Assembly: GCA_973895155.1 (NCBI GenBank)
Contig: OZ316898.1
Span: forward strand, 8,729,079 to 8,793,078
DNA from: Marsupella aquatica
Lineage: Eukaryota; Plantae; Marchantiophyta
DNA: 64,000 nt
Direction: 5' to 3'
Positions 3,870 to 29,504 of this stretch are shown here, in pieces. Position 1 is the first letter of the stretch; every line of letters begins with the position of its first letter. Made by a program: the position numbers and the translations under genes. Under the pieces are notes generated by a model, which saw nothing but the letters and a program-made list of their open reading frames with translations, ran no database searches and was not told where the DNA came from.

Positions 3870-4635
3870 GGCTTAGCCTGTTTCAAACATAGGTATAAAT
3901 TTTCTAACATATGCATTGTACCCTGAAACTAATGTCAAGTCCATTGGATGTGCAGGATTGGTTTGCCCTGGCAAAGGTTACAATGGGGAAGTCAAGCCTA
4001 AAGAGCATTTATTGGTTACTTTTGAAGATGAGCTCTTTGAATTATGGCGGAACGTGTGTGAAAAATGGTTGAGTGGGAAGCTCCAAGACGGGGCTGGTGG
4101 GTATGGAGGGCCAAGACCCCCAAAATTGATCACTCCCGGTACCTTTCGATGCTTTGATGGAGAGATTAGTAGCAAACAGATAATTGAGATCTTGAAGGAC
4201 GTTGAAGAGGAGCGTGTCTTGCTGAAGAAGGATATCACCAACAAATCAGAGCTTGTCGCAATGGGAGACTTGGCCCTTACAATCAAGATAATGTCCAAAT
4301 TGAGAACAGTCATTATTGGCTATTTTGTGGAAAAGTATCGTGAGAAGTTTCCTGTTGGCACATCTTGGGAGTCTCTGGTGATATTGTTGCCTTCCTTGAA
4401 ATCTGAGCTTGAGATGACAAAATTGAGGAGAGCAGCGGGTGAGGTTTACCTCAACAATTCATTGAAGAAGAATGTGGTCAAAGAGAGTTTCCCACAAAGT
4501 CTGATGGTCAGACTAGATGGGTTGTATTGTAAAGAATTTGGTGGGATTGGTCATTCTCGCACGGAGCCTTTCTTGACATTTTTTAGTGATAATTTGATGA
4601 AGACAACCGTGCCGGAAATGCTACAAGAGCCTTTG

Positions 4636-7624: not shown

Positions 7625-8279
7625 GAGATAGGGTTGCTCTAGTGCCTACCCTGAATTGTACATTCATATTATGTCAAAGGATATGTTTTGAACATGTAGG
7701 ATAATGTAAATAATTAGGATATGCTTAGTGTGAGGCTCTCTCACTGGATTGGACAATTTAATAATTATATAGTGGGTCAATCTCATTTTGACCCTTGATT
7801 TATGACCATCTATATTTTTTAATTTATAGATGGTCTGAGTGGTATTGGCCTCTGATTTTTGGACTAAATTAAATTTACTCTAATTTTTAAATTAATAGAA
7901 TATATGATTTAAGTTATTATTAAACATTTGGGTGAAAAAAATAAAATTTGGGCGTTCAAAAGTGTATATTTGGGCTGAAAAAAATTAGCTTTTGGGAATG
8001 CTTTAATAGAAATTTGGCCTGAAAAAAAATAACTTTAGGGTTCATCTTATGGACTTTTAAAAGTACAGTTTTAATGAATGCCGCGTCCCTAACCTGGGCC
8101 TTAAATCCAGTTTAGTGCCATGGTGCGACCTCGACCACCAGTAGGGGTGAGGGTTCGGGCAAGGAGGTGTGTAGTGTCCCCGATTAGCCCTAAGTCGGGC
8201 TAAGCCGATATACTTACTGGTATAACGCTTAAGCTATTCGTACTAGTCATAGGTATCTTTTATCTTCCACCGCTGGAAT

Positions 8280-11200
8280 TGTGATGCCTAGACAGGAATC
8301 ACTCGGCCGGTTAAGTGGGTAAAGCAGGAAGGCACCCTAGGAACACCTTAGTATAGTGACAAAACAAGGAAAATATAAACAATTAGGGGCAACCATGGAA
8401 CCCGGGCAGAGGCCGGAGGTAAGGCTGAGGGTGAAAACCCGATTAGGGTTAGGGCGCGTTAAGCGTCGGCGGCTAGGAAGGATCAACGGGAAGAAGGACC
8501 GGCAGAGGAGAGGGGTAAGGAGCGCTTGCAGGAGATGGTGGCTCATTTGCGAGCACGAACTAGGCAGACGACTACGGGAGGCCAACTACTGTCAGCTGCT
8601 TAGGCAAGCACTCGGGGAGAGAGTAGATACCGACGATCGACCTAAGGAGGGTATGAGCAACGTCAATCAAGCGGCACATTTCTGGGGATGCCTGTTCGAA
8701 CGGGCAACTGAGTACATCAAGACTTACGAGGACGAGGAGTCAGAAAGGGCAGCTCGAGAACGGCAGGAGCTCGCTCGATTGTGGGAGCTGCAGAAGACGG
8801 CTTTCTTAGGAGGCGAACTCATCAAGGACGAGTTCCTATGGACGCCTACTTCCAATCAACCCGACGATCTTCTGTTTTGCAAAGACAGCGTCGTCGGCAT
8901 CCGAGAGGCCATCAAGAACTGCAACGACATACACTGGGAATTAAAGGGTAGCACGGAAAGGTGGACCCGGGCAACGGTGCTAGGAGAAACCTCCACGGCA
9001 GCAGAGATGAAGAGGAAGGGGGCCGTCAACGATGAAGCCACCCCGGCAAAAAGAACGAGGTCGGCGGCACCAAAGAAGCCAGCCGAGCAGCAGAGCAAGG
9101 GGCAGGGAGAAGCCGAAGAGGAGGAGGTCGATCCCATCAAGGCCATTCCAACCAGGGATGACACCTGGAAGGGCTGGGCGGCAACCCTACCGGTGGAGGT
9201 GCAACTACATTTTGCACGGGAGGAGGATGCATGCTTTACGGCCATGCAGACCAAGAAGTACCAAGGCTTCATGGCCGGATCCAGCTTGGAGGCCTTTGTA
9301 AGATTACCATGGCTGAAGCCGGAGGTACCGGAGTCAGACCTATTAGAATTCGTGGGGTCATGGGAACCCGAGACCAATTGCACGAGGATATATGGGAAGG
9401 ATTTCTATCTTACTCCCAAGGTGATTGCCGAAGTGTTTGGCTTGCCGATGGGCAATAAGACCAAAGTTGATACCAGGAAGACCTTGCCTGACAAGGAGTT
9501 CCGGTCGTTCCCCGGGCCATCAACGAAGAATGGCTTCTTCCGGAACACCTGCACCAACCCGCACATAGGAGAGATGATCGACTTCTTGCGGGTGACCATG
9601 CATTGTAACTTACCGAGGGCAGAGATCGGCAAGGCACAGGTCTATCTGGCAGAAAGGCCAGACCCAAGCCGGGACTACAACGGGTACCTCCTCAACCAAT
9701 TGAAGAAGATCTTAAAGGAGGAGCAGCAGGTAATCGGCATGGGGAGCGTGTCGCGGCTTGGCTATCACATGCCGCTGTTGTGCCGGTATGCCAGAGGTCA
9801 GACTTTTGCCCCGGTACTTCCCCTGCAGGTAAGGGCACCCGAGGAAACTCCAACGCCGAGGCCGTTGGCTGAGAAGCCTCAACCACCTGTTAGTCCTACG
9901 ATCGAGCAGGTGTTTAGGCCCAAGAAGGAAGACTTGCCGATGCAGCAACCAGGCATGCAGAGTCTGCTGAAACTACTGGAGAAAGAAAAGAAATCGGCAT
10001 CGGCAACAACAACGGCAACGGCAACAATGCAGGACACTACTACAGAGGTAGGCCTACACCGGCTCACAAGAGAAAACCCCTTTGCTGGAGACAAGAAGAG
10101 AATCAGGCCGGAATCCAAGCCAGGTGTTCGAATGTACGTGGGAACCTCAACCTCCAAATCTGAGGCAGAATTGCCTGAAGCTCCTACCGAGGAAGAGGAG
10201 AGGGAGAAGCCGGACGTCCAAGAGGTAGAGGAGGCAGTGGAGGACTGCAACCATGATAATTCCGGCTATGGGTCGGACCATCACGTTCCAGGAGTAAGGA
10301 CCTGTGGCCGGTTTGTCCCCACACTTCCAAGGGTAGTGCGAGGGGACCCCAACCAGCAGAGTAGCCCTGAGTCTCCCCCACCAGATGTCGCTCCCCCGAG
10401 CTTCGACGGCATAAAACAGACGGTGCAGGAATTTCAGGAGCGAATCAAGCAGGAGGAAGAGGCCGCCCTGGCTAAGGAAAAGGATTTACCAGGAGGAGAT
10501 TGGCCGGAGGACATCAGGCGGCTAGCCGAAAAAGGAAGCAAACCTCTAGCCACGATTGAAGAGATCCGCAGGACGGCGTGGGAGCAGAGGCCACGATGGG
10601 CGATGCCGATCACTTCTACTTACTCCACCTACGCTAAGAATAGAGCCATGGAGTATGGTGAGATGTGTGGGGAACTTGCGCTCGGCATCTTTGGAGAGGA
10701 GTTGGAGGTAGGACCCTTTTTTCATAGGGAGCAGTTGGAGAAGCACCAATTAGAAGAAGCGGTGGCTTTAGAGAGAAGCAAGAAGGACGAGGTCATTCGG
10801 CGGCTTAGGAGGATGGAAGCCGAGATTGAAGATCTAAGGGCGGCCAAGAAAGCCCAAGATGAACTGCGGATTAAACGACATGAGCTGAACATCATGCAGG
10901 GGCAGTTGGACGCCGCGCAGGCTGATAATCAGAATATCAAGGATAAACTGACTCAGACACAGGAAGAGTTGGCCGACACGATCAAAGAGAGGGAAAAGTG
11001 GAAGCAAGAGCTGAAGAATACAGAGGAGGCCCACATAACAGCCAACAGCCGGGCCATGGCGGAGACCCAAAGAAAGGAATGGGCATTGAAAGGGGAGCTC
11101 GAGAAAATCCGCGGAGCCCTTGAGCAGAAGGAGGTCGAGTTAGGGAAATCCTATCAAGGGATTATGGCGCTGCAGCAGGAGCTTGCGTCCCTGACGGCCA

Positions 11201-12939
11201 GCTTCAAGGCCGACCTAAGGGAGAAGGACGAGATGCTCGAACAGACTTACGCCAAGATGAACCAGATGGAGTCTGTCATCATTGCAGAGCTCGACAAGGA
11301 GCTAAGAGCAACCCAGGAGGAGAGGGCTACCTTGAAGAAGGAATTGGAGAAAGCCCACAGGGAGCAGGAGGAGGCCAAAAACGAGCTGGAGGGGGCACGT
11401 AAGGACCTGGATGAAACCCAAGAGGAGTTGGAGGAAATCACGAGGAAGATGGAGAACCTACAGCGGCGGGCCGACAACCAAACAGAGCGGCTGAAGAAAC
11501 AAGCCGCAGTATTTAAATGCTTAGCTGCAGCAGGTCCATCTCCCGTTGGGACAAACCAGTTACCAGGGGTGGTAATTGCCGAAGGACAAGCCGCGTCAAC
11601 TGCACCAGTGCCGGAAGTAAGTGGGAAGGGGAAGGGACCAGCTGCCGAGCCACCAACGAAGAAGAAGCGGAAACCTTCAGGGTCAAGGAGTAATATGACT
11701 TCACAGGCCGTGGTGATCAAGGAGGTAGACCCAGCACCGACCCCAGACAGGGTCACGGCTAAGGATCCAACTACCCTAGGGGAAGGGGAGGCCGAGGCCG
11801 AGGGAGTGGCTGAAGCCGAAGCCGTGGGAGTGGCTGAGGCCGAAGCCGTGGGTATTGCCGAGGCCGGTGTCGAGGCTGAAGCCGAAGGTGGACCCAGTCA
11901 GGCCGATGGAGAGTTGACTCGGTCAAGGGCAGGTAATCTGTCAGTAGGCGGGCCAACGGCAGTGGCTGAGGAGGAAGTGTTGGGGGCGTCCATTGAGGAT
12001 CCACCACCGGTGTCGTGACGGTGCAAGGGCGCCGTTCCTTTTAGGGAGGGCGGACGTGGAGGGAGGAGGCGTGAGTGGGCAGGGCGGGCACGGATCTCCA
12101 CGTTTAGGATTAGGATCAGAACCAGGAGCGGCCCTGACACTTAGCTTAGTGGGATTGCGGTTCCACTGGTAGGAGCAACACTTGTGCTCCTGCCTTGCTG
12201 TACATAGGTAGATTCGGGCAAGTAGATTACTGTCAGGTAGATTAGGCTTACGATGCAAAGAATGGCGGATCCACTACCAGGATAAGTACCTGGGCAGCGG
12301 GGAGCTCAGGGCCTCTTCTTTAGCAAGTTTTTAGTTTGCACCAGCCGGGCTGGGATCAAGTAGTACGAGAAGCTCTCGGTTAGTCATACAGTGACCCTTG
12401 TGTATATTCATGTTTCCTCATGCCTAAGAGCTGAATAGAGTTGGCCTCACGGCTTAGTTCGCAGAACTTGTGTATGAGATGTACTGTTTGTATGGCAAGT
12501 GCATGGTATGACTCAGTCAGAATGAGTCATTTTGCTATTTGTGTGTCGCATTAACTTGTGTGAAGAGTGCCCACATCAACAGAAGGAAGGAAAGTAAGCA
12601 GGGGAGTGATAGTTGGATGTGTCGAGCTGAGAGAGGTCTTAGCGGCTTAACCAAGCCTATTGGGGATCATTCCGGCGGCGGAATCCAAACATACCTAACA
12701 AGACGGAGGGGAAGACAGGGGAAGACAAGGGAAGGCCTATATTAGGCCGGCTACGTATCTCATGACCCGATGAAGGATCTGTCCAGTATATGTGTGTAAA
12801 ATGTTAATAGTAGTAGTAGAAGGTTAGCAGCGTCCCATGCCGCTAAGCCGCGGAAACGGCCTCGCCAAGCACGAAACCTGTGGGAATCGGCTTGAGCTGG
12901 GGGGTTTCTTGGGTTTAGGGAGCCATGGGACGCACCACA
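8280..12939 (+). repeat. 5' LTR (4,660 bp)
   Basis: Starts TGTGATGCC, ends CGCACCACA; about 17 substitutions seen by eye versus the 3' LTR. Confidence 0.95.
8395..12018 (+). CDS. LTR-encoded ~1,207-aa protein (5' LTR copy): Arg-rich N-terminus, plant-retrotransposon accessory-ORF-like domain, long coiled coil, acidic repeat tail
   Basis: Open frame 8356-12018, first ATG 8395. LLEFVGSW...RIYGKDFYLTPKVIAEVFGLP resembles the Athila env-like/Transposase_32-type motif (by eye). Heptad-rich region ~10700-11510, PTKKKRKP NLS-like motif, EAEAVGV repeats. Confidence 0.8.
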   Translation: MEPGQRPEVRLRVKTRLGLGRVKRRRLGRINGKKDRQRRGVRSACRRWWLICEHELGRRLREANYCQLLRQALGERVDTDDRPKEGMSNVNQAAHFWGCLFERATEYIKTYEDEESERAARERQELARLWELQKTAFLGGELIKDEFLWTPTSNQPDDLLFCKDSVVGIREAIKNCNDIHWELKGSTERWTRATVLGETSTAAEMKRKGAVNDEATPAKRTRSAAPKKPAEQQSKGQGEAEEEEVDPIKAIPTRDDTWKGWAATLPVEVQLHFAREEDACFTAMQTKKYQGFMAGSSLEAFVRLPWLKPEVPESDLLEFVGSWEPETNCTRIYGKDFYLTPKVIAEVFGLPMGNKTKVDTRKTLPDKEFRSFPGPSTKNGFFRNTCTNPHIGEMIDFLRVTMHCNLPRAEIGKAQVYLAERPDPSRDYNGYLLNQLKKILKEEQQVIGMGSVSRLGYHMPLLCRYARGQTFAPVLPLQVRAPEETPTPRPLAEKPQPPVSPTIEQVFRPKKEDLPMQQPGMQSLLKLLEKEKKSASATTTATATMQDTTTEVGLHRLTRENPFAGDKKRIRPESKPGVRMYVGTSTSKSEAELPEAPTEEEEREKPDVQEVEEAVEDCNHDNSGYGSDHHVPGVRTCGRFVPTLPRVVRGDPNQQSSPESPPPDVAPPSFDGIKQTVQEFQERIKQEEEAALAKEKDLPGGDWPEDIRRLAEKGSKPLATIEEIRRTAWEQRPRWAMPITSTYSTYAKNRAMEYGEMCGELALGIFGEELEVGPFFHREQLEKHQLEEAVALERSKKDEVIRRLRRMEAEIEDLRAAKKAQDELRIKRHELNIMQGQLDAAQADNQNIKDKLTQTQEELADTIKEREKWKQELKNTEEAHITANSRAMAETQRKEWALKGELEKIRGALEQKEVELGKSYQGIMALQQELASLTASFKADLREKDEMLEQTYAKMNQMESVIIAELDKELRATQEERATLKKELEKAHREQEEAKNELEGARKDLDETQEELEEITRKMENLQRRADNQTERLKKQAAVFKCLAAAGPSPVGTNQLPGVVIAEGQAASTAPVPEVSGKGKGPAAEPPTKKKRKPSGSRSNMTSQAVVIKEVDPAPTPDRVTAKDPTTLGEGEAEAEGVAEAEAVGVAEAEAVGIAEAGVEAEAEGGPSQADGELTRSRAGNLSVGGPTAVAEEEVLGASIEDPPPVS

Positions 12940-12943
12940 TTTT

Positions 12944-12960
12944 TGGCGCTAGATGGAGGG
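12944..12960 (+). promoter_or_regulatory. Putative primer binding site
   Basis: TGGCGCTAGATGGAGGG, 4 nt after the 5' LTR CA. The cognate tRNA could not be assigned by eye. Confidence 0.7.
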
Positions 12961-13008
12961 GGCATTTCTTAAGCCGTGAGATATGAAGTTAGAACGGAAG
13001 CGTAGGTA

Positions 13009-14979
13009 ATGACTGACCTTACGCCGAGGGAAGAAAGAGTGATTCAACGGGAGAGAGCTCGACTGCAGCAGCTGGCCGGGTGGCATGATACACAGCAACT
13101 GAGAGGGGCAGAAAGAGCTGGTAGCTCCGAAACTGGAAGTGGCATCGAAGAAGACATACCAGAGGAAGAGTCGGTAAGGAGAAGTGAGTCTCCAACCGAC
13201 ATGGGGGAACCAGAGGCACGGCAAGACGAGAGGCCAGGGACCAGATTGAGCCAGCGGTCGCGCATACATTACAAAGCATTTCATGGGAGAGGAGATGAGG
13301 ATCCGGACGAATGGTTGGATGATTTCGAGGGAACCGCTGCAGCAAATGGAGAATCGGCCATCAAGATGCAGATTCTTCCCGGCCTGTTCAAGGGTGAGGC
13401 TAGGCCTTGGTACAGAGCATTAGATGTGGAAGATCAAGCCATCTGGGATATCTTCAAAACACTCTTTGTTAAGGAGTTTCGACCCATTGGAACTTCAGAA
13501 CTAGCAGTGCTGAAGTTGGGACAACTTCGGTTCAAGGAGAACAAATCCTTCAGGAAGTTCTTGCAACGCTTTCAGAAACTGGTAAGACGTACAAAGACCA
13601 ATGCATCTGAAGGTATGCAACTTCAATGGTTGGTGAATGCTTTGCCACAGAAGATGAGTTTTGCAATTAGGAAGGAGAACCCGGAGACTTTAGCCGAAGC
13701 AATTAAGGATATTCAATTATACATTAATGCAGATATCACAAGCCGGAAGAAACAGCTTAAGCCTGAGAGTTCCTCATCAGAGGAGGGATCACCCCATAAG
13801 AAAAAAGATAAGAAGAAGAAACATTCCAAGAAGTCTAGAAGTGATAAGTCAAGCTCGGATAGTGGGAGTAGCAAGAGTGAGTCATCTTCTAGTTCTGAAG
13901 AAGAAAAAACTAGGAAAAGGAAGGGCAGAAGGAGAGGGAAGACGAAAGTCAAGATGGAGGCTAAGCCACCAGATAACATCGTAGCCCTTACCGAGCAACT
14001 TAAGGCTATCATTGCAGAGGTAAAACCAAAGAAGGTAGTACAGGAGGATAGCTCTGTATGGTGTGCCTTATGTTATAAAACCGGACACCATAAAGATGCG
14101 TGTCCTAAGCTTAATACTAATCATGTTCGGCATGTGGCCGAGATCAGACCATGTCAGGGAGAAGTAGAGTACTTTTTGGGAGATGCCGCTGATAGTGTTT
14201 TCGGCATCAGTGAGACTGGAGCACGAGACCTATCCAACAGACCTGCATCTCTGTGGTCAGGGTTAAGGAACAATCCAGGAGAGATGTATCCTCGGATTAT
14301 TCAGAACCCGTCAGTACCTCCTAGGCCGAATGTGCAAAGATTTGCGGCGTGCTATAATTGTGGTCAACCTGGCCATTTTGCTAGAGAATGCCCGAATGCA
14401 CGCAAACAGGGTGATGGACAACCAGCTCAGCTATGTATGGGATGCCGACAGGAAGGTCATATGCTAGGGCAATGTCCTACTTGGTTGGCAGGCCTGGCCG
14501 CAAATCATAAGCTTTTGCCGATCAAGATCTTACCGCCAGGTACTACCCCCGGAGGAGTTCAAATCAACCACATCGAACTAGGATGGCAAGAGGATGCCGA
14601 GGCAGAGTTCGTACCATCTGATGATGAGGCCGAAGCCCTATCAACCTTCTCAAAGGAGGATTTAGATCATGATTGCTACCGGGTCTCTACTCGATCTACC
14701 AGAAGGAAGGAAAGGTGGGATGGGCTGGCCAAAAATAAAGGGAAGGTTACGGAGGAAAGGATCGACTCTTCGTCAACATCAACAGAAGGAGAAGGGAGGG
14801 CTCCGGCAATACAGGTAAGCCATGAGCCCACCAGTGAAACCAATCCTTCACAAGATAGCGACTTCAATCGAGATCATCCTAAGTTGTTCTACCCCTCTGT
14901 TACGGCTAGTGTTAAGGAACAACTAAGAGAATTAGAAACCCTGGAGAATACCGAAGCCATTGCCAAGGATGTAAAATGA
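13009..14979 (+). CDS. gag: Gag (retrotransposon gag domain + three CCHC zinc knuckles)
   Basis: FHGRGDEDPDEWLDDF...KGEARPWY...FVKEF capsid-like block; CALCYKTGHHKDAC, CYNCGQPGHFAREC, CMGCRQEGHMLGQC. Ends at a TGA in frame with the protease segment. Confidence 0.92.
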   Translation: MTDLTPREERVIQRERARLQQLAGWHDTQQLRGAERAGSSETGSGIEEDIPEEESVRRSESPTDMGEPEARQDERPGTRLSQRSRIHYKAFHGRGDEDPDEWLDDFEGTAAANGESAIKMQILPGLFKGEARPWYRALDVEDQAIWDIFKTLFVKEFRPIGTSELAVLKLGQLRFKENKSFRKFLQRFQKLVRRTKTNASEGMQLQWLVNALPQKMSFAIRKENPETLAEAIKDIQLYINADITSRKKQLKPESSSSEEGSPHKKKDKKKKHSKKSRSDKSSSDSGSSKSESSSSSEEEKTRKRKGRRRGKTKVKMEAKPPDNIVALTEQLKAIIAEVKPKKVVQEDSSVWCALCYKTGHHKDACPKLNTNHVRHVAEIRPCQGEVEYFLGDAADSVFGISETGARDLSNRPASLWSGLRNNPGEMYPRIIQNPSVPPRPNVQRFAACYNCGQPGHFARECPNARKQGDGQPAQLCMGCRQEGHMLGQCPTWLAGLAANHKLLPIKILPPGTTPGGVQINHIELGWQEDAEAEFVPSDDEAEALSTFSKEDLDHDCYRVSTRSTRRKERWDGLAKNKGKVTEERIDSSSTSTEGEGRAPAIQVSHEPTSETNPSQDSDFNRDHPKLFYPSVTASVKEQLRELETLENTEAIAKDVK

Positions 14980-15999
14980 GCAAAAGCATTGTTTGCTTCG
15001 GAAGACCCAACAGCTGTGGAGACTAGCGTGGCAAAACTGGCCGAATCCAAGACGGAAACACCACCAGAAGAGAAGCCGATTGTTCCCTATGACCTGGCTA
15101 AAGATGTACTAGAATCTAGAGTCTCGGCAACAGTAGGTCAACTATTGAAAAATAGCCCGTACTTCCGGAAGCAATTAAGGAAGGCTATTCTCAGCAAGCC
15201 GAGATTACCCAAGGTAGCAACCAGATCCGACGTACTAATGATAGAAGAAGATCAAGGAGCCCCAACATTACCATTAATGATTCAAGGAGAATTATTACTA
15301 CGGGTACCCATCGATGGAGGATCAGGGGTATGTATTATGATTGATTCAACAGCAAAAGGGTGGGGTCTAACACCGGAGATGACTGGAAGAGTGTTGAACA
15401 TGGCCAATGGATATCAGGTCATTCCGACGGGAGTGTTAACCGGCATCAAGACAGAGATAGGAGGTATCTTCTTTAGCATTAACTATGTAGTAATGAAGCC
15501 GGTAAATCCTACGTCATTCCGGCTATTGATTGGTAGGCCATGGCTGTACCTAGCCGAGGTAATAGAAGATTGGGGTAAAAAGCAGTTCACTTTCGGGACC
15601 CCCTCTATCACGGTATCCTGGGACACTAAGGATGACCGTAGGAAAAGCATAAGGGAAGTAGATGGGTACGATAGTGGACTGGAGTCAGCCGATGAAGTAC
15701 GTTGGTTAGAATGCCTCACTAACCTAACCGAAGAAGGTGTCTTTGGACCAGAGGTACCCCCCAGCGGATTATGGCAAGAACCAATGGAAGGTGACTTGGA
15801 AGAAGAAGACGAAGAGGTCGAGGACTGCTTTACAATAGAATCCACCTTTTTAGCTGCAATTCCGGAGGAAGTAAAGGATGTAGACCAATTGGATGAAACG
15901 GCTAAGTGGGGAGCAGTAGCAGGGACAGTGGATTTTCTGCAGGCGTTGTGGCAGAGCCGACGGGGTCCACAACGCCATCGATCATCGGCAAGGAATTAA
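14980..15999 (+). CDS. Aspartic protease segment (same frame as gag, after an in-frame TGA)
   Basis: VPIDGGSGVCIM active-site-like motif and LLIGRPWL. Confidence 0.85.
   Translation, partial: AKALFASEDPTAVETSVAKLAESKTETPPEEKPIVPYDLAKDVLESRVSATVGQLLKNSPYFRKQLRKAILSKPRLPKVATRSDVLMIEEDQGAPTLPLMIQGELLLRVPIDGGSGVCIMIDSTAKGWGLTPEMTGRVLNMANGYQVIPTGVLTGIKTEIGGIFFSINYVVMKPVNPTSFRLLIGRPWLYLAEVIEDWGKKQFTFGTPSITVSWDTKDDRRKSIREVDGYDSGLESADEVRWLECLTNLTEEGVFGPEVPPSGLWQEPMEGDLEEEDEEVEDCFTIESTFLAAIPEEVKDVDQLDETAKWGAVAGTVDFLQALWQSRRGPQRHRSSARN
15930..15989 (+). promoter_or_regulatory. Candidate -1 programmed ribosomal frameshift signal (slippery heptamer + H-type pseudoknot)
   Basis: G_GAT_TTT at 15930-15936 in the protease frame, 5-nt spacer, perfect 10-bp stem 15942-15951/15967-15976; loop GCCGA (15956-15960) complementary to TCGGC (15985-15989). 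The RT ORF is in the -1 frame. Confidence 0.7.
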
Positions 16000-18900: not shown

Positions 18901-19173
18901 AGGTTAAAAGTAGTTAGTATTCATACCGGTGATCTTGTGCTACTTTATGACAGTAGGTATAGTAGGTTTCCAGGAAAGCTTTACACTCACTGGTTAGGAC
19001 CCTTTAGAGTAACCATGATGTTCCCCAATGGCTCCGTACAATTGGCCAACATTACGGGAGAGGTATATCCAGTTCGCATCCATTATGACCGCCTCAAGAA
19101 ATACTATATGGACGAAGATGAAGTTGTTCGTGAGGACGCTTCACAATTAAGTGGGGAGCTATGTGATGCCTAG
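15930..19173 (+). CDS. pol: Pol: reverse transcriptase, RNase H, integrase (one frameshift in T8 run 17102-17109)
   Basis: RVCQDYRKLN, MDGYSGYNQI, MPFGLCNAPA, FIDDF (RT); VDVSGFCIGSVL, RNYSTTEREAL, TDH (RH); H-H-C-C, GIDY...SDRG...NGLTERAN, GPF (INT). Removing one T restores PDKCFFAVTEGVLLGH. The stop codon lies inside the 3' LTR. Confidence 0.93.
19149..19161 (+). promoter_or_regulatory. Polypurine tract
   Basis: AAGTGGGGAGCTA immediately before the 3' LTR TG, inside the integrase reading frame. Confidence 0.7.
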
Positions 19174-22100: not shown

Positions 22101-23821
22101 GGGAGAAGGACGAGATGCTCGAACAGACTTACGCCAAGATGAACCAGATGGAGTCTGTCATCATTGCAGAGCTCGACAAGGAGCTAAGAGCAACCCAGGA
22201 GGAGAGGGCTACCTTGAAGAAGGAATTGGAGGAAGCCCACAGGGAGCAGGAGGAGGCCAAAAACGAGCTGGAGGGGGCACGTAAGGACCTGGATGAAACC
22301 CAAGAGGAGTTGGAGGAAATCACGAGGAAGATGGAGAACCTACAGCGGCGGGCCGACAACCAAACAGAGCGGCTGAAGAAACAAGCCGCAGTATTTAAAT
22401 GCTTAGCTGTAGCAGGTCCATCTCCCGTTGGGACAAACCAGTTACCAGGGGTGGTAATTGCCGAAGGACAAGCCGCGTCAACTGCACCAGTGCCGGAAGT
22501 AAGTGGGAAGGGGAAGGGACCAGCTGCCGAGCCACCAACGAAGAAGAAGCGGAAACCTTCAGGGTCAAGGAGTAATACGACTTCACAGGCCGTGGTGATC
22601 AAGGAGGTAGACCCAGCACCGACCCCAGACAGGGTCACGGCTAAGGATCCAACTACCCTAGGGGAAGGGGAGGCCGAAGCCGAGGGAGTGGCTGAAGCCG
22701 AAGCCGTGGGAGTGGCTGAGGCCGAAGCCGTGGGTATTGCCGAGGCCGGTGTCGAGGCTGAAGCCGAAGGTGGACCCAGTCAGGCCGATGGAGAGTTGAC
22801 TCGGTCAAGGGCAGGTAATCTGTCAGTAGGCGGGCCAACGGCAGTGGCTGAGGAGGAAATGTTGGGGGCGTCCATTGAGGATCCACCACCGGTGTCGTGA
22901 CGGTGCAAGGGCGCCGTTCCTTTTAGGGAGGGCGGACGTGGAGGGAGGAGGCGTGAGTGGGCAGGGCGGGCGCAGATCTCCACGTTTAGGATTAGGATCA
23001 GAACCAGGAGCGGCCCTGACACTTAGCTTAGTGGGATTGCGGTTCCACTGGTAGGAGCAACACTTGTGCTCCTGCCTTGCTGTACATAGGTAGATTCGGG
23101 CAAGTAGATTACTGTCAGGTAGATTAGGCTTACGATGCAAAGAATGGCGGATCCACTACCAGGATAAGTACCTGGGCAGCGGGGAGCTCAGGGCCTCTTC
23201 TTTAGCAAGTTTTTAGTTTGCACCAGCCGGGCTGGGATCAAGTAGTACGAGAAGCTCTCGGTTAGTCATACAGTGACCCTTGTGTATATTCATGTTTCCT
23301 CATGCCTAAGAGCTGAATAGAGTTGGCCTCACGGCTTAGTTCGCAGAACTTGTGTATGAGATGTACTGTTTGTATGGCAAGTGCATGGTATGACTCAGTC
23401 AGAATGAGTCATTTTGCTATTTGTGTGTCGCATTAACTTGTGTGAAGAGTGCCCACATCAACAGAAGGAAGGAAAGTAAGCAGGGGAGTGATAGTTGGAT
23501 GTGTCGAGCTGAGAGAGGTCTTAGCGGCTTAACCAAGCCTATTGGGGATCATTCCGGCGGCGGAATCCAAACATACCTAACAAGACGGAGGGGAAGACAG
23601 AGGAAGACAAGGGAAGGCCTATATTAGGTCGGCTACGTATCTCATGACCCGATGAAGGATCTGTCCAGTATATGTGTGTAAAATGTTAATAGTAGTAGTA
23701 GAAGGTTAGCAGCGTCCCATGCCGCTAAGCCGCGGAAACGGCCTCGCCAAGCACGAAACCTACGGGAATCGGCTTGAGCTGGGGGGTTTCTTGGGTTTAG
23801 GGAGCCATGGGACGCACCACA
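19162..23821 (+). repeat. 3' LTR (4,660 bp)
   Basis: Direct repeat of 8280-12939, followed by TSD GGAAT. Confidence 0.95.
19277..22900 (+). CDS. LTR-encoded ~1,207-aa protein (3' LTR copy)
   Basis: Open frame 19238-22900; differs from the 5' copy by about 6 amino-acid changes and no indels. Confidence 0.8.
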   Translation: MEPGQRPEVRLRVKTRLGLGRVKRRRLGRINGKKDRQRRGVRSACRRWWLICEHELGRRLREANYCQLLRQALGERVDTDDRPKEGMSNVNQAAHFWGCLFERATEYIKTYEDEESERAARERQELARLWELQKTAFLGGELIKDEFLWTPTSNQLDDLLFCKDSVVGIREAIKNCNDIHWELKGSTERWTRATVLGETSTAAEMKRKGAVNDEATPAKRTRSAAPKKPAEQQSKGQGEAEEEEVDPIKAIPTRDDTWKGWAATLPVEVQLHFAREEDACFTAMQTKKYQGFMAGSSLEAFVRLPWLKPEVPESDLLEFVGSWEPETNCTRIYGKDFYLTPKVIAEVFGLPMGNKTKVDTRKTLPDKEFRSFPGPSTKNGFFRNTCTNPHIGEMIDFLRVTMHCNLPRAEIGKAQVYLAERPDPSRDYNGYLLNQLKKILKEEQQVIGMGSVSRLGYHMPLLCRYARGQTFAPVLPLQVRAPEETPTPRPLAEKPQPPVSPTIEQVFRPKKEDLPMQQPGMQSLLKLLEKEKKSASATTTATATMQDTTTEVGLHRLTRENPFAGDKKRIRPESKPGVRMYVGTSTSKSEAELPEAPTEEEEREKPDVQEVEEAVEDCNHDNSGYGSDHHVPGVRTCGRFVPTLPRVVRGDPNQQSSPESPPPDVAPPSFDGIKQTVQEFQERIKQEEEAALAKEKDLPGGDWPEDIRRLAEKGSKPLATIEEIRRTAWEQRPRWAMPITSTYSTYAKNRAMEYGEMCGELALGIFGEELEVGPFFHREQLEKHQLEEAVALERSKKDEVIRRLRRMEAEIEDLRAAKKAQDELRIKRHELNIMQGQLDAAQADNQNIKDKLTQTQEELADTIKEREKWKQELKNTEEAHITANSRAMAETQRKEWALKGELEKIRRALEQKEVELGKSYQGIMALQQELASLTASFKADLREKDEMLEQTYAKMNQMESVIIAELDKELRATQEERATLKKELEEAHREQEEAKNELEGARKDLDETQEELEEITRKMENLQRRADNQTERLKKQAAVFKCLAVAGPSPVGTNQLPGVVIAEGQAASTAPVPEVSGKGKGPAAEPPTKKKRKPSGSRSNTTSQAVVIKEVDPAPTPDRVTAKDPTTLGEGEAEAEGVAEAEAVGVAEAEAVGIAEAGVEAEAEGGPSQADGELTRSRAGNLSVGGPTAVAEEEMLGASIEDPPPVS

Positions 23822-24609
23822 GGAATCCTCCCTCAGTTAGTGACTCGGACTAACTCCCGGCTTGGGGCTTTTCAAGCCATCGACGCGAAAGAACTTTGTG
23901 ACATACAATGGGTGGCAATCCCTACCATTAGTCCACACCCGGTACGTCCCTTAAAATGGTGCCTTTGCCCAGACAAAGCATACTCACCACACCAGTTACT
24001 TGCAGAAACATTAGAGGGAAAAGACTACATTTACTTAGCAAAGCATCAGTTTACATGGTTGATTCGACTTCAAAGGGGGTCAGCAGGCCCAATGGCAGTC
24101 GATGCCCAGTCTCTACGAGGCCCCGCCTCGCACTTGCCCAACAAGCTCGACTCTGGCTCTCACTCCTTAGTGCGCTCTGACCCTGCTCAGGCCGGGACTC
24201 CCCGTGCCTCACCTATCTTTTGCCGAGATAACTAAGCCTTCTCCCCCTTCCATAGCGGAAGGGGAAGCCTAAATACTACAGTTTGCGGAAGAGAACCGGA
24301 GGATACTACCTTTCGGGATACTACCTACTGCCTAACTACCTTGACTACTGGTCGTGCCGCACTGACCGGTTGACCGTCGACGACAAGGGTGCCAACCGGG
24401 ATGGCAGCGGCCAAGCCTTTTGACAAAAATCTAGTCCATTGATGAACTCCATCCTTTGTTGGCTGATCCTAACTGATCCGGCCCTAATTCTTCCTACTGC
24501 CGCTAATCGGTGCCTAATGACAGTCATTCTGTCGTTGCACCTAACCGAAAGATGTCGTTGTCTTAACTGCCTCGCGTGGCGCCTGCTTCCACCCTTCGCT
24601 AACCACCCC

Positions 24610-27217
24610 TTACATGGGTGCTGTGGTTGGACCAGGGCTGGTCCCCTTGTCAGGGCGAGACCTCGAGCCGCCTTGATCAGAGGTGGGCCCAGGTTTTCCC
24701 CGCTGGAGGACGAGCAGGGTAACGCGGTCCTGCAAGGCCTTGTTGTCCCGTACCGCCTCCTCCGCCTCGTTTGCAGCTTCATCGGCCTCGGCCTGGAGCC
24801 GCGCTACCTCCAAGTTGAGATGGTTAATGGAGTCGCGATGGATCTGGTCCTGCGCCAGCAATTTATCCCGCTCGGCGGAGAGACTAGCCACCTGCTGCGC
24901 TGCCTACAGGAATTGTTTGTTGAGGTCGGTCAGGCTGGTAACCCGAGCCAAAGATTCTGAGCGTAATTGAAGCACGGTGTCGTCCAGCTTCTTGAGATCT
25001 GCTTGCGCTCTGCTTAACTCCTGGGTTAGTCCGTCCCTCTGTTCGACGGTGCGGACTAACTCCTCGCGGCGGGTAGTGGCCTCCTCCTCGAGGTGCTCTA
25101 CCAGCATCTGGAGGCGCCCGATCTCATTCCCCTTCGCCATGAGTTCTTCTTCCAAGCGGCTTACGATCCGTGGTTGGTGCTCTAACATGAAGAAGGCTGG
25201 TTGAAAGTACGCCGAGACTTGTTGTCCGATGTATGTTGCCAGCTCCCCAGACATAGTCTGGCTAAACTTCTGGACCAGGTCGTAGGCCATGGTCCCCGGG
25301 GCTACTTGGTAGTCCTCCATCCTCTCGGGTATCGGTGGTTCCTTGGGCGGGGCAACAAGCTCCTCCGTAGTCTGCGCTGGGGAGGGGAAGGTTTCTTCAG
25401 GTGGTGGAGGGATTGGGGGTGGTTGTACTGCGGGTAGTGGAGGCTCGACGGAAGGGGGCAGCGGAATTTCTAAAGGAGGAGGTGGTGGAGTATTACTCGG
25501 GGCTTTCGGCTCGGGGCTTGCCTGAGGGACGGTAGTCCGTGTGCTTGGGGTTGCCTCCTCTGGTGCACGGGTGATATTAGTCGGGGCTGAGGTGGCCATA
25601 TTCTTTCCTCTGGCCTCCCGCCGTGCCTTGTACCAGGCAAGGATAATGGCGATATGGCTTCCCAAGTAAGTCTTCCCCCCAATAGCCATACCACCCTGAG
25701 CCCGCTTCAGCTCCCCCAAGAATCTTCGGTAGAAGAATTGGGCCCAGTTCCGCCGTTTGTACTGTTCCACCTGCACGATCGTGCAGAGGGAAATCTCGGA
25801 TCGTGGCTCAATCATGTGTAGGGTAGTCCGTATGAAGTTAAAACGCTCCATGCAGATTAAGTTGGTGCACGACCCCTGCTTGTATCCATTGTCTGTCTTA
25901 CCCTCAGGTTTGAAGTGCTGCGGCGTATACTCCTTATCCCAAATTCGGAGTTCAACTGGCACCGGCCCGATTGGCAGATAGAAGATTTGCGTTAACCGAT
26001 GCTCCGTCAGTGATAAGGCCTGCCCCAAAACCTTGGTGGTCGATGCGTCAGTGTCAAAATTGGAGATGAACTCACAAATCTCCTTCGGCCTGACGGCGCA
26101 CGGCCTCCATAGCAAGTGAGCGAACCGCTCCAACTGATGCTCCTTCAGATAGTCCGCGTGTTTGAGTTTCTTGATCGCGATCCAGACTACTTCGGGGATG
26201 CGAATTACTTGTAATAAGTTGGACTTCGGGTTATCCGGGGGTCGTCGGTTCTGGTTGGCCGGGGGGTTTGCCGGGGCAGGGGCAGGTGCAGGCGCGGCGT
26301 TGGTTTGCGTTGTTGATTCGGGGGCCGTCGTCGTCCTTGATCGCTTACGAGAATGATGTTCGAGTTGCGGACTAACTTGCTCGGAACCCGAAGAACACTC
26401 TGTGTTGATCACTGGACGGACTTGGGACCGGTTTGGCGGTACGCCGGTGGTCATCGACTGAGGCACTGGTGGTATCGGGGTAGCCATATCCCAGTTGAAG
26501 GCGTTGGAGCTTTCCCCGAGGAATGTAAGATTACGCGCCGCTTCCCGTTGTCTGCTGATGTCTTCTTGGCACTTTTCGGCTGCAATCTGCTGGTCTAGGT
26601 ACCCCGAAATCTTGTCGAACTCCGCTTGAGTAAGCCGTTGGCTGCCCTTCAACTTAAAGAACTTCACTGGGACTTCAAGAATCGCCTCTGCTACCGATCT
26701 AAGCCCTTCCTCGCTGAGATATAGTTCGGTGATGTAGTCTCCTAGCTCGTTGTAGCTGGAATCCCTGGTGATGGCTGTCCTTTCGCAATTAACCAGTGCT
26801 ACCTTGGTCACCAGCTTCGCGTATCTTTGTTCGTAAGCGGCTTTCTCGGGACAAGAGTACCAGTAAGTCTCGGAGAACTTAGCACCTACCTCGCCAAACA
26901 AGGTCCAAAATCCCAAGGTTGTAAGGGTCATACTAACCTCGTAGTCCGGTCCGTTGAGTCCACGTTCCCACTCGGCTGGTCCTTTTGCTGGTGGAGGTCT
27001 CGCTCGTCCTGACTAAATCTTGCCATATTCTACTCTTATCCCTCGATAATCTCCTTGTAAAGGTCGACTTGATTCGATCAAAAAGGCGAGTGGATGGCAA
27101 CGTCCGCGAATTCCAAAAAGGTGGAAATGAGCAAATGGCCCGCAGTGCCATCGGCTCCTCTCTTATGGAGGTGCCAGGATGAGCCCGAGCGTGAGAAGGC
27201 CAGGCCGTTTTGGTCAT
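24610..27217 (-). pseudogene. Homolog of the LTR-encoded protein inside the solo LTR (in-frame TAG at 24904-24906; probable frameshift near 26932)
   Basis: FAHLLWRPCAVRPKEICEFISNFDTDASTTKVLGQALSLTEHRLTQIFYLPIG aligns with FVRLPWLKPEVPESDLLEFVGSWEPETNCTRIYGKDFYLTPKVIAEVFGLPMG; NGYKQGSCTN..FIRTTLHMIEPRSEI aligns with NGFFRNTCTN..FLRVTMHCNLPRAEI. The coiled-coil C-terminus continues in frame to 24610. Confidence 0.85.
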
Positions 27218-29504
27218 TGAATGAGCTGAAGTCGGCGCCTCGGTCCAAGCGTGACTTCTAACTGATTTTTACTCCGCTGCCGCCACCGTACCTCGGTCGC
27301 GCGTAATAATCCTCTTCTTGAACTCGTAATTATTTGGTCATCTTAACCTACTCCTAATCTATTCATAATGGCAACAGACGGCTATACGTGCTATTCTATG
27401 CTACGGCTACGGTCCTAACGTCTGTATAAGACCTAATCTACGACCTGGGTTTGGTTAAGTGACACGTTACCCGTGTCACAATGAATATAGTGATAAAGAT
27501 ATATCATCTATAGTACTTGTTGTTGATCTTTTGCTTAGTTGACACCCTGGTTGACACCTCTTATAGTGATGCGTCCCCATTTGGTTCAATGGCACGTCCT
27601 TACTTGGCTTTCACTTAGCTTTTCACCTAGTTATAGTTGTTGCCCCAATTAAAGACAAAGATTAAATCTAATGTGTTAGGTATTTACCCTTCCATCTAGG
27701 GTTACAATATGTAACCGTAGTTAGGCTAACCATAGTCGGAAACGTGGTTACGTTAACTAAGTTGCACACTATATCCCAAGCGATGCTTGCTAGGATGAAT
27801 GGAACCAAGGCTCATTGTTATAGAACCACTTGAGAGGTGAGGAGAGCTTATACTATGGAGACCTGGTATAGTCGACAGACTTAGAGTTCAATAAAGCTCT
27901 CTTGTGTGTTCCCGTGGACGTAGCCTCAAGGAGGTGAACCACGCATCTATTGTGTTGACTACTCGTGCGTTGGATGTGTCATGGGCTTACCATTGTGATC
28001 GAATGTCGTCTTTGCTCAACATAGTGTGCTTCTCACATCTACATGTACTTGTAGTTTCAGTGAAGATGTCAAATTTTCATTTCTTGCTTAGTTTTCATGG
28101 AAGAATTCTTTCAAGTTCTCAATGACACAAGTCCCTCATCATTACAAGATTTGTACTACTAGTTACATTACTATGAGCGTTGTGCTAGAGAAGGTATTAG
28201 GAGGGGTATTATTTTGCTCAAATTACCTCTAGCTTGCTTTGAGCCCTTGGGCCCTCACTCCGTGTAAAAGAAGTGGACCCCCTATAATCGGGACCTCTTC
28301 CTATTTACCCCTTGTTATTTTCATTTTACTATAAAAACTTCCCTTATTACTGGTAATAATTATAATTATTAGTTCAAAATGAATAATGAATAAAATCTCT
28401 TTGAGCATTCGCACGTCCTCCACATATTAGTTAAGATTGAGGGCCCGGGGTTTGAGTCATTAATTGTACAAGACTTAGAGTGACTTATAACATGTTGGGG
28501 GCACTTGTAAGTTTGGCTCCTTTATTCAAGGATTTGCATTTATTGAAGTTCATTTCAAATATGTTTTGGTTTTACTAGGTGATTTTTGTCTCCATGCTCA
28601 ATGCTGATTGGGTTAAGGGGCAGTGATTGAACAACCTGACATTGCCTTAATTGCTTTATTTTCATTGGGCCAACTTGCATGTATGCAGCCCTGAAACAAT
28701 TGGCCCTAAGCCCCGCCCTAAGCAATCGCAAACCTTTAAGAAAAAACCAAATCTTGGTATCTCTGTCCCTAGTGGGGTCCCTAGTACGTGTATTGAGCGC
28801 CCTTGCCCTTGGATTCTTGCTTGGTCCTTGTCCACTATAGATTATGCACTACCCATTTTGATAGTATATCAAAGGTGGGATTGCTAAGGGCGAGGGCCAA
28901 AAATCCATAATGATTGCCATCAGGCCTGCCTTAGGAGGGGATTCAGGCACTAAACTATAAATCTATGATATGATGGCATGAGTCAACTTGAGGGCTTTCA
29001 AACAACGGACTGCATACATGCAAGTTGGCCCTTCATGTTGTTTTCCTGGCCTCCATGTGGGAGTTGTCCTTTTCAACATGAGTTGGCCTTTGTGCTGCTT
29101 GTTTTCCCTTATCCTTGGTGCTTTCATAGTTTTATAACTTAGAAGTCCAAATCAAAAGATTTTTGGTTTGTATTCTATATTGAGAAGAGGAAGTGACCTT
29201 CCAGTAAATTTGCTTTGGTGAAAGAAGAGTAGTCATGCACTCCACAGAGTAGTGGGAGTGAGCCCACCAAAACCAATCGATTGTTACAATCAGCCACATC
29301 AATGATGATCACAGGTCTCTGAAGCGGCAAGAGTGTAGAGACTTGCTTCAAAATGTGGCTAGTGGTCTTTGGACATTGCAACCAGTGGGGTAGCGCATGA
29401 GACCTGGTTTGAAGTTAGAATCACCAGCACCAAACCGACTCGCAGAGACTCATGGCAGAGCTATTTGGAGAGCATGGGTGGGAGTGCTCTCATTACAGAT
29501 GACC

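What the first reader, a model, noticed from the sequence alone, without database searches (positions are those of the whole stretch)
8079..27480. A second, diverged family shows the same design: a solo LTR carrying a homologous gene
Seen: removing the nested element leaves a ~3.86-kb TG...CA unit with TSD ATGAA, no gag/pol, and a long minus-strand ORF. Its protein aligns block by block with the LTR protein (FW-LF block, LGExS block, EF...GxxxxLT..I..IFxLPxG block, NG...CTN...PRxEI block, LGxH, coiled coil), although no extended DNA similarity is apparent by eye. Inference: protein conservation across diverged families implies old, selected function and a lineage of gene-in-LTR elements. Solo-LTR formation would scatter stand-alone copies of the gene, which annotators would call host genes.
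Basis: partly seen in the sequence, partly recalled or inferred. Interest (0 to 1): 0.85.

Follow-up and report, generated by a model that had tools for sequence, protein, structure and literature searches.

The report
Gene-carrying solo LTR in a liverwort
A 3.9-kb insertion in a leafy-liverwort genome is most likely the leftover end-piece (solo LTR) of a jumping gene, and it carries a truncated copy of a protein gene whose relative sits inside both end-pieces of a younger retrotransposon nested in it; the protein's core is predicted to fold like a plant transposon's DNA-binding anti-silencing factor, so such end-pieces would be small genes of their own.

Summary
Removing the nested Ty3/gypsy element (8280-23821, TSD GGAAT) leaves a 3,855-bp TG...CA unit with TSD ATGAA. 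It has no gag/pol and a 675-codon minus-strand ORF.

The ORF's protein is homologous to the 1,207-aa protein in each 4,660-bp LTR of the nested element (BLASTP E 3e-21, same domain order). No DNA similarity remains.

Public read sets show the unit is a multi-copy repeat with varied flanks. Paralogous empty sites carry one ATGAA.

The decisive test, paired copies flanking gag-pol, could not be run because no genome is held. "Solo LTR" is therefore very likely but not proven, and its orientation rests on weak evidence.

The stop that ends the ORF is private to this copy, so this copy is decaying.

The protein belongs to an unnamed family: 59 representative clusters, and the only organism named is the liverwort Calypogeia fissa, where they are annotated as ordinary proteins. 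With a family alignment AlphaFold gives a confident model. Its central domain's only clear structural match is VANC21, a transposon-encoded sequence-specific anti-silencing factor (Z 8.1-8.2).

Closest precedent for a gene inside an LTR: MMTV sag. Verdict: real, a new variant of known kinds, function inferred only.

The parts
8074..8078 (.). Left target-site duplication ATGAA of the outer unit
   Evidence: empty-site paralogues with a single ATGAA(T) in 4 of 4 runs (loose ends behind 8079)
8079..8279 (-). Left piece of the outer unit. It is the last 201 nt of the likely solo LTR when read in the gene's orientation.
   Evidence: Starts TG. Multi-copy in the runs, with varied upstream flanks.
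8280..23821 (+). Nested full-length Ty3/gypsy retrotransposon, TSD GGAAT at 8275-8279 and 23822-23826
   Evidence: Pfam finds gag, zinc knuckle, RT, RNase H and integrase. The PBS-like TGGCGCTAGATGG starts at 12944 and the PPT-like AAGTGGGGAG ends at 19161.
8280..12939 (+). 5' LTR of the nested element (4,660 bp)
   Evidence: blastn against 19162-23821 gives 99.6%, 17 differences
8395..12018 (+). LTR-borne ORF, 1,207 aa from the first ATG. The start shared with the family is more likely M87 at 8653.
   Evidence: It begins at LTR position 116.
19162..23821 (+). 3' LTR of the nested element, carrying the second copy of the ORF (19277-22900)
   Evidence: The pol ORF ends at 19173, 12 nt inside this LTR.
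23827..27480 (-). Right piece of the outer unit, ending CA
   Evidence: Repeated in all 4 runs, with contigs 85-99% alike.
24904..26931 (-). 675-aa ORF homologous to the LTR protein of the nested element
26512..26931 (-). N-terminal helical domain (residues 1-140, 'FW' block)
   Evidence: pLDDT about 90. Conserved in 10 rows of the 38-row alignment A3: the two window proteins and 8 database proteins. Only non-specific helical-bundle matches, Z 5.5 or less.
25606..26223 (-). Central conserved domain (residues 237-442), predicted VANC21-like fold
   Evidence: BLASTP core. pLDDT above 90. Foldseek top hit 9lnj_A, prob 0.92, E 0.14. VIA-align Z 8.1 and 8.2 with 190 residues aligned.
24904..24906 (-). 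Stop codon TAG private to this copy
24613..24903 (-). 97 further in-frame codons (coiled coil) behind the private stop, up to the next stop
27481..27485 (.). Right target-site duplication ATGAA

Best explanation
The 3,855-bp unit is most likely a solo LTR of a second, older Ty3/gypsy family of a leafy liverwort, and it carries, probably in sense, a truncated copy of an accessory gene homologous to the one inside both LTRs of the nested element.

Shown:
- It is a precise TG...CA insertion with a 5-bp duplication.
- It is multi-copy and has no gag/pol.
- The two proteins are homologous.
- The protein belongs to a family of 59 representative clusters.
- This copy carries a private stop codon.

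Inferred from the intact nested element:
- The plus-strand primer site (PPT) lies upstream of the gene, and pol ends 12 nt inside the 3' LTR.
- So the gene occupies the place of a post-pol extra ORF but falls inside the LTR, probably in U3.
- Reverse transcription therefore copies it to both ends.
- LTR-LTR recombination then leaves it behind in every solo LTR.

Predicted for the protein:
- An N-terminal helical bundle.
- A central domain with the fold of the DNA-binding part of VANC21.
- A long coiled coil for oligomerisation.

By analogy, and untested, the protein would bind the element's own DNA and help it escape silencing.
For: Insertion anatomy.

Empty sites: contigs in 4 of 4 runs run from the left flank straight into the first 11-12 letters of the right flank (5, 2, 4 and 4 contigs).

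Repeat status:
- 199-237 contigs per run were laid on the 330-nt left end.
- 19-44 distinct contigs per run cover place 24906.
- Flanks before 8082 vary, with agreement 0.56-0.70.
- A second junction type before 8087 is conserved in all 4 runs (agreement 0.97-0.98 where 2 or more contigs are long). That fits an LTR-internal junction.

No gag/pol in the unit.

No terminal direct repeats inside the unit, so it is not a miniature complete element.

Homology.

Family.

LTR status of the nested gene.

Orientation:
- 5' TGTGA and a GGGACGC motif near the 3' end are shared with the nested LTR.
- The termini score 2 in gene-sense against -3 in the other orientation; 5% of shuffles reach 2.
- The non-coding head and tail are purine- and G-rich on the gene's strand, as in the nested LTR.

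Fold:
- Model pLDDT is 81 overall and above 90 in both domains.
- VANC21 is the top hit in two searches that do not depend on each other: Foldseek prob 0.92, and VIA-align over 48,161 chains at Z 8.1, rmsd 4.3 over 190 residues, with the next hit at 5.5. The second look gives Z 8.2.

Literature:
- VANC proteins are sequence-specific anti-silencing factors with DUF1985 and DUF287 domains (PMC5735166, passages).
- VANC is structurally homologous to the PMD protein MAIN and is predicted to dimerise through a coiled coil (PMC13547354, passages).
Against: - No copy of the unit flanking PBS-gag-pol-PPT was seen. The genome is not held and contigs of the runs are only about 100-400 nt.
- The conserved junction could equally be read as a PPT side if the LTR ran the other way. 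Its last letters, AAAGTGAAAT, resemble the nested PPT. Orientation therefore rests on weak evidence (p about 0.05).
- The transcription start and poly(A) site are unknown. No TATA or AATAAA lies in either LTR tail, and no RNA run was available, so 'U3' is an inference.
- No Pfam family, PMD and DUF1985 included, matches either window protein even at E 10. Nor does any match 26 relatives above threshold.
- The family profile finds no VANC21 chain by sequence.
- Z 8 is at the level the tool's own note calls common for best hits. Identity is 10%.
- This copy is truncated, so it says nothing on whether solo copies are expressed.
Confidence: 0.7

Rival explanations
1. The unit is an LTR, but its sense strand is the window's + strand. 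The ORF would then be antisense to the element, a different design that resembles the antisense extra ORFs of Grande, RIRE2 and Retand, moved into the LTR.
For: TG...CA and the TSD are symmetric. The conserved junction before 8087 ends in AAAGTGAAAT directly before TG. It is purine-rich and resembles the nested element's PPT AAGTGGGGAG. The 3'-end alignment scores 4 in this orientation against 3 in the other. Antisense extra ORFs are common in plant Ty3/gypsy elements (PMC7264820, part 1 read).
Against: The summed terminal score favours the gene-sense orientation, 2 against -3. The GGGACGC motif and TGTGA sit at matching ends only in gene-sense. Non-coding head and tail show the same purine/G excess as the nested LTR on the gene's strand. 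A homologous gene inherited inside an LTR is expected to keep its orientation.
Confidence: 0.12
2. The unit is not a solo LTR. It would be some other integrase-inserted or rearranged piece, for example a fragment of a larger element whose apparent TSD is chance, or a non-autonomous unit that never had a partner LTR.
For: No paired copy was observed. The termini are a poor inverted repeat, TGC/TGT against TGTGAC. Depth falls over 8225-8279.
Against: The empty-site paralogues show a clean insertion bounded exactly by the TG...CA ends, with one ATGAA. A 5-bp TSD with TG...CA is the LTR-integrase signature (established knowledge). There are many copies with different flanks and no internal terminal repeats. 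The same gene family lies in a proven LTR 76 bp away.
Confidence: 0.08
3. The family is at root a host gene family. The Calypogeia 'unnamed protein products' would be real cellular genes, and the two LTR families captured copies independently.
For: VANC is thought to derive from capture of a MAIN-like host gene (PMC13547354, passages). 12 of the 30 clusters looked up contain annotated C. fissa proteins. Genomic context of those proteins was not seen.
Against: Both window copies lie inside TG...CA repeats, and both repeats are high-copy. One C. fissa 90% cluster has 6 members on 3 contigs, 4 of them fragments of 171-377 aa against a 630-aa member, which is transposon-like. Two independent captures into the same part of an LTR, with the whole three-part architecture kept, is less parsimonious than inheritance.
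Confidence: 0.08
4. The protein is a structural or trafficking accessory of the virus-like particle, a coiled-coil scaffold like the Athila domain or env-like ORFs, and is not a DNA-binding anti-silencing factor.
For: It has a long C-terminal coiled coil (sub-threshold coiled-coil families only). It sits directly behind pol, where env-like ORFs lie (PMC7264820). The atlas lists an ATHILA-bearing cluster among weak look-alikes (score 0.82). The VANC21 match is moderate.
Against: Neither protein has a hydrophobic segment of transmembrane strength: the best 19-residue Kyte-Doolittle mean is 0.98 and 1.13. The only structural match that stands out covers the whole central domain and is to a DNA-bound protein.
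Confidence: 0.25

Closest known systems
sag (superantigen) gene in the U3 of the mouse mammary tumour virus LTR
   Same: A protein-coding gene lies inside an LTR, which is 'ordinarily non-coding'. It is copied to both ends, and most surviving copies are in solo LTRs: 490 of 527 sag contigs (PMC4667437, passages).
   Different: That is a vertebrate betaretrovirus and this is a liverwort Ty3/gypsy element. There is no sequence relation: no Pfam family at all matched. This ORF is far larger, 675 to 1,207 aa filling over half of a 3.9-4.7 kb LTR. Its position in U3 is inferred here, not mapped.
VANC21 of VANDAL21 (Arabidopsis Mutator-like DNA transposon), PDB 9LNJ/9LNK
   Same: It is a transposon-encoded accessory protein of plants. 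The central domain of the model superposes on residues 295-534 of the DNA-bound chain (Z 8.1-8.2, 190 residues). Both have a coiled coil (PMC13547354, passages).
   Different: Identity is 10%. There is no DUF1985, DUF287 or PMD Pfam match and no profile hit to the chain. The carrier is an LTR retrotransposon, not a DNA transposon. DNA binding and anti-silencing are untested here. VANC is described as dicot-specific (PMC13547354).
Additional ORFs of plant Ty3/gypsy elements (env-like ORFs of Athila/Bagy2, antisense ORFs of Grande/RIRE2/Retand, ORF0 of Retrosat2/RIRE3/RIRE8)
   Same: These are lineage-specific extra ORFs of unknown function that evolve faster than pol. Several accompany LTRs over 3 kb (PMC7264820, part 1 and phrase search; PMC3485330, abstract and passages).
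   Different: All of those are described in the internal region, between pol and the 3' LTR or upstream of gag. Here the ORF lies beyond the PPT, inside the repeat itself. No transmembrane segment is present.
Transposon-associated plant mobile domain (PMD) proteins and their host relatives MAIN/MAIL1
   Same: PMD motifs occur both in genes and in transposons (PMC7156037, passages). VANC is structurally homologous to MAIN (PMC13547354). The motif around '...IF.LP.G' resembles the PMD core as I recall it. An atlas look-alike cluster carries PMD in 20% of its members (score 0.82, a lead only).
   Different: PF10536 does not match at E 10. Membership is not shown.

Membership tests
Solo LTR of an LTR retrotransposon | TG...CA termini | tested here: met
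   8079 TG and 27479-27480 CA
Solo LTR of an LTR retrotransposon | 4-6 bp target-site duplication and a matching empty site | tested here: met
   ATGAA on both sides. Paralogous empty sites in 4 of 4 runs. No allelic empty site was seen.
Solo LTR of an LTR retrotransposon | No internal coding region (gag/pol), no PBS/PPT, no terminal direct repeats of its own | tested here: met
   Best tblastn E 1.8. Self-blastn finds no direct repeat.
Solo LTR of an LTR retrotransposon | The same sequence occurs as paired direct repeats around PBS-gag-pol-PPT elsewhere in the genome | not testable with these tools
   No genome is held and contigs are too short. There is only a conserved junction in all 4 runs that may be the PBS side.
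Ty3/gypsy LTR retrotransposon (the nested element that defines the 'design') | LTR pair, TSD, PBS after the 5' LTR, PPT before the 3' LTR, gag then RT-RNase H-integrase order | tested here: met
LTR-borne gene of the MMTV sag type | ORF lies within the LTR | tested here: met
   ORF 8395-12018 lies inside LTR 8280-12939, with a second copy in the 3' LTR
LTR-borne gene of the MMTV sag type | ORF lies in U3, upstream of the transcription start | not testable with these tools
   No RNA run was listed. No TATA or AATAAA in the tails.
VANC / PMD superfamily | Sequence match to PF09331 (DUF1985), DUF287 or PF10536 (PMD) | tested here: not met
   No Pfam hit for the two window proteins or their domains at E up to 10. 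None in 26 relatives apart from one sub-threshold Transposase_32 hit.
VANC / PMD superfamily | Shared fold with a solved member | tested here: inconclusive
   VANC21 is the top hit in Foldseek (prob 0.92, E 0.14) and VIA-align (Z 8.1/8.2, rmsd 4.1-4.3, 190 aligned, next 5.5/4.9). Z about 8 is near the tool's background for best hits.
VANC / PMD superfamily | Sequence-specific DNA binding and loss of silencing at the cognate element | not testable with these tools
   Needs experiments
env-like extra ORF of plant Ty3/gypsy elements | Located between pol and the PPT/3' LTR, with a transmembrane segment | tested here: not met
   The ORF starts 116 nt inside the LTR, behind the PPT. Maximum hydropathy is 0.98 and 1.13.

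The most novel reading that the evidence does not exclude
Leafy-liverwort Ty3/gypsy elements carry inside their LTRs a VANC/PMD-type, sequence-specific DNA-binding anti-silencing factor. Every LTR, including every solo LTR, would then be a self-contained gene with a promoter, an ORF and the LTR's own terminator. Solo LTRs would keep supplying the factor in trans to the family. They would also be a route by which transposon genes of the PMD/MAIN kind become host genes.
Probability: 0.15. Interest if true: 0.85.

Novelty: new variant of a known kind. Interest (0 to 1): 0.6.

Why it matters
LTRs are treated as non-coding control regions, and repeat maskers and gene annotators both assume this.

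Here a large accessory gene, up to 1,207 codons, sits inside the LTR of one proven element. A diverged relative sits in a second, LTR-like repeat. So the arrangement is a lineage trait and not a one-off.

The arrangement has consequences:
- The gene is present twice per element.
- It survives the commonest route of element loss, solo-LTR formation.
- It is scattered through the genome, where annotation pipelines call it a gene, as appears to have happened in Calypogeia fissa.

If the predicted VANC21-like fold reflects function, this would be an anti-silencing type of accessory protein in an LTR retrotransposon of a bryophyte. That lies far outside the dicot DNA transposons where VANC is known. 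It would also make the origin of PMD-type host genes testable.

Tried and rejected
- Own genome search: not held.
- Word-based protein search with the whole 675-aa protein and with residues 236-445: no hit at near lengths. Longer and shorter lengths were not searched with that tool.
- Viral contigs and metagenome contigs, searched with the domain alignment and with relative P0067: no relative.
- RNA evidence: no RNA holder listed.
- Contig cover: X3 and X4 contigs cross the right unit/flank junction with 0 differences, but only 28 letters lie on the unit side, under the tool's 31-letter rule. They are not counted.
- Continuity 8279 to 23827 in uninterrupted copies could not be read. Contigs that run past the end of the laid stretch are only counted, not shown. 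It rests on the GGAAT duplication.
- Single-sequence AlphaFold of the domain: pLDDT 36.7, unusable.
- Pfam at E 10 and PDB by sequence profile: only coiled-coil noise such as syntaxin and apolipoprotein.
- N-terminal domain: only generic helical bundles (ferritin/Dps/BAR, Z 5.5 or less). No conclusion drawn.
- Atlas look-alikes all 0.85 or less: leads only.
- tRNA genes in the window to identify the primer: none.
- TATA and poly(A) motifs in the LTR tails: none.
- Tandem repeats as possible binding arrays: only short ones, a 15-mer x2.7 at 12206 and a 10-mer x2.8 at 12707. No conclusion drawn.
- Retrosat2 ORF0 was considered as the precedent and rejected. It lies upstream of gag in the internal region and is grass-specific.
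- Differences between the two LTR copies of the nested ORF: 11, of which 6 change the protein. This is post-insertion drift and says nothing on selection.
- The careful tree did not finish, so only the quick tree is used.
- Flank-to-flank comparison for terminal inverted repeats of the host repeat: nothing.
- Earlier findings by place and by sequence: nothing.

Full report
**Setting.** The window is plant nuclear DNA.
- It holds an intronless LRR receptor kinase (43077-46292, minus strand), a pheophorbide a oxygenase piece and a VID27/CYPRO4 gene.
- The VID27 protein is 91% identical to a Calypogeia fissa protein, 75% to Marchantia and 73% to Riccia.
- The source is therefore a leafy liverwort close to, but not the same as, C. 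fissa.
- No whole genome is held for it.

**Anatomy.** Two 4,660-bp direct repeats, 8280-12939 and 19162-23821, differ at 17 places.
- They are flanked by GGAAT on both sides.
- The first is followed after 4 nt by a PBS-like TGGCGCTAGATGG. The second is preceded by the purine tract AAGTGGGGAG.
- Between them lie gag with a zinc knuckle, a protease-sized ORF, RT, RNase H and integrase in Ty3/gypsy order.
- Each LTR holds a 1,207-codon ORF that starts 116 nt into the repeat.
- pol ends 12 nt inside the 3' LTR.

Taking this element out leaves a 3,855-bp unit.
- It starts TG, ends CA and is flanked by ATGAA on both sides.
- It has no similarity to gag or pol: best E 1.8.
- It has no terminal direct repeats of its own.
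- It has one long ORF of 675 codons on the minus strand.

**Is the insertion real and repeated?** Four public read sets hold 37-48% of the unit's sampled words. They carry two coded organism labels and come from two studies.
- Laid at 85% likeness, thousands of short contigs cover both the nested LTR and the unit.
- They are spread over all identity classes, and transitions dominate the differences, as expected for old, methylated repeats.
- Summed depth over the nested LTR is roughly ten times that over the unit.
- On the 330-nt left end, 199-237 contigs per run were laid.
- Contigs in all four runs (5, 2, 4 and 4) follow the left flank up to 8079 and then continue with ATAGTGATAAA... That is what follows the right-hand ATGAAT at 27487.
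- The flank is itself a repeat, so other copies of that repeat serve as empty sites carrying a single ATGAA.
- Contigs that enter the unit from the left have varied upstream sequence, agreement 0.56-0.70. Copies therefore sit at many sites.
- A second class, seen in all four runs, has one conserved upstream sequence, agreement 0.97-0.98 and up to about 130 nt. This is what a junction between an LTR and the inside of its element would look like.
- I cannot tell whether that junction is the PBS side or the PPT side.

**The gene.**
- BLASTP of the 675-aa protein against the 1,207-aa LTR protein gives E 3e-21, 28% over 270 aa.
- The N-termini give a weak second hit, E 0.012.
- The global alignment shows the same order of parts.
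- At the DNA level nothing is left.
- The first 86 residues of the 1,207-aa protein are an Arg-rich stretch with no counterpart.
- The 675-aa protein and seven of the eight database relatives that keep the N-terminal block carry the 'FW' motif within their first 12 residues. The shared start is therefore probably M87 (8653).

**This copy is broken.**
- The TAG that ends the 675-codon frame has, at its first base, a letter that almost no other copy shares. At 24906 the runs read G for 67,278 of 68,410 depth units in X1, 15,242 of 18,490 in X2, 8,137 of 8,296 in X3 and 4,507 of 4,507 in X4.
- Other copies therefore read CAG.
- Behind it the frame stays open for 97 further heptad-rich codons.
- The gene was at least 773 codons long, and this copy is decaying.

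**The family.**
- A profile of the shared domain, run over 1.84 billion representatives, finds 59 proteins at E 0.001 or better, 26 of them at 1e-10 or better. Lengths are 76-744 aa, and none is fused to gag or pol.
- I looked up 30 of the 59. Twelve clusters hold proteins named 'unnamed protein product [Calypogeia fissa]'. Two hold 'hypothetical protein' without an organism. Sixteen are unnamed contigs of sequencing runs. No other organism name appeared.
- One cluster at 90% identity has six C. fissa members on three contigs, four of them fragments. That is how a transposon behaves.
- Pfam matches none of 26 relatives above threshold.
- In a quick tree the 1,207-aa protein, with two unnamed relatives, is separated from all others, the 675-aa protein included, by the longest internal branch (support 100). 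The careful search did not finish.
- The two window genes are thus old paralogous lineages of one family.

**Fold.**
- Alone, the domain does not fold in silico: pLDDT 37.
- With the 38-row family alignment the model of residues 1-445 reaches pLDDT 81. Both folded parts, 1-140 and 240-445, are above 90, and the linker is disordered.
- Foldseek against the PDB finds no hit at E 0.001. Its first hit, the only one with probability above 0.13, is VANC21 bound to its target DNA (9lnj_A, prob 0.92, E 0.14, 237 columns).
- A search that does not use Foldseek, over 48,161 chains, also puts VANC21 first: 9lnk_A, Z 8.1, rmsd 4.3 A, 190 residues. It covers model residues 237-442, the whole central domain.
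- The next hits, at Z 5.5, all concern the N-terminal helical bundle. The second look gives Z 8.2.
- Z near 8 is not proof. But the hit stands clear of the rest, spans the domain, and concerns another plant transposon accessory protein.
- VANC proteins are sequence-specific anti-silencing factors (PMC5735166, PMC8756742, passages).
- VANC is reported to share its fold with the PMD protein MAIN and to dimerise through a coiled coil (PMC13547354, passages).
- Weak atlas look-alikes (0.85 or less) include PMD, DUF1985, Transposase_32 and ATHILA clusters. These are leads only.

**How it most likely works.**
- Shown: in the nested element the gene lies behind the PPT and so inside the repeat.
- It follows from the established mechanism of reverse transcription that everything between the PPT and the R region is copied to both ends. 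It also follows that LTR-LTR recombination leaves one full LTR, gene included.
- Inferred: the gene lies in U3, the outer unit is such a remnant of a related family, and its gene is in sense.
- Support for sense orientation is weak but consistent. The termini share TGTGA and GGGACGC, and 5% of shuffles score as well. The non-coding parts show the same purine and G excess on the gene's strand.
- Speculative: the protein binds its own element's DNA and counters silencing.

**What is known.**
- A gene inside an LTR has its classic case in MMTV sag, most of whose copies survive in solo LTRs (PMC4667437, passages).
- For plant LTR retrotransposons, the review of additional ORFs places them in the internal region. 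I read part 1 of 3, and a phrase search of its text for 'in/within/inside the LTR' gave 0.
- Retrosat2 ORF0 lies upstream of gag.
- Four full-text searches for LTR-borne ORFs in retrotransposons returned no plant case. These are phrase searches of an open-access library, so absence from them is not proof.
- Earlier notes of this scan report genes inside LTRs in other genomes. The arrangement may be commoner than the literature suggests. I did not test those notes.

**Verdict.**
- The thing is a new variant of known kinds: extra ORFs of Ty3/gypsy elements, LTR-borne genes of the sag type, and VANC/PMD-like transposon proteins.
- It needs the genome, RNA ends and a DNA-binding test to be settled.

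Noticed in passing
window 2060-7624 (+): A run of long open frames with no Pfam family (344 aa at 2710-3744, 784 aa at 3877-6231), followed by a piece of an NIF/FCP1-like phosphatase (6926-7624). It may be a large unannotated gene or an unknown mobile element.
   Followed up: no
window 7950-8078 and 27486-28105: The DNA into which the outer unit inserted is itself a repeat in the read sets (high summed depth). Its other copies served as empty sites. No terminal inverted repeats were found between the two flanks.
   Followed up: partly
window about 8260-8279: In the two runs labelled organism B, some copies of the unit carry a different TGTGAC... element about 10 bp from where the nested element sits here (loose ends behind 8260: 2 and 3 contigs, agreement 0.94-0.99). 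This may be an insertion hot spot near the LTR end.
   Followed up: no
window 8395-8652 and 8372: The first 86 codons of the 1,207-aa LTR ORF are Arg-rich and have no counterpart in relatives. A TATA-like AATATAAAC lies about 20 nt before the first ATG. Between the first ATG and the family-type start M87 (8653) there is only one other ATG, out of frame. This hints that the LTR gene has its own promoter at the LTR's start.
   Followed up: partly
window 1589-1992, 29983-30621, 40971-41495, 41998-42361: Four tandem or dispersed repeat arrays with periods about 65, 87-171, 197 and 182 bp.
   Followed up: no
Calypogeia fissa proteins P0070 and P0022: Two family members of different subfamilies have accession numbers two apart on one 41.7-Mb contig. 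Two split copies lie in opposite order ten accessions apart on a 14.8-Mb contig. This suggests clusters of these elements in that genome.
   Followed up: no
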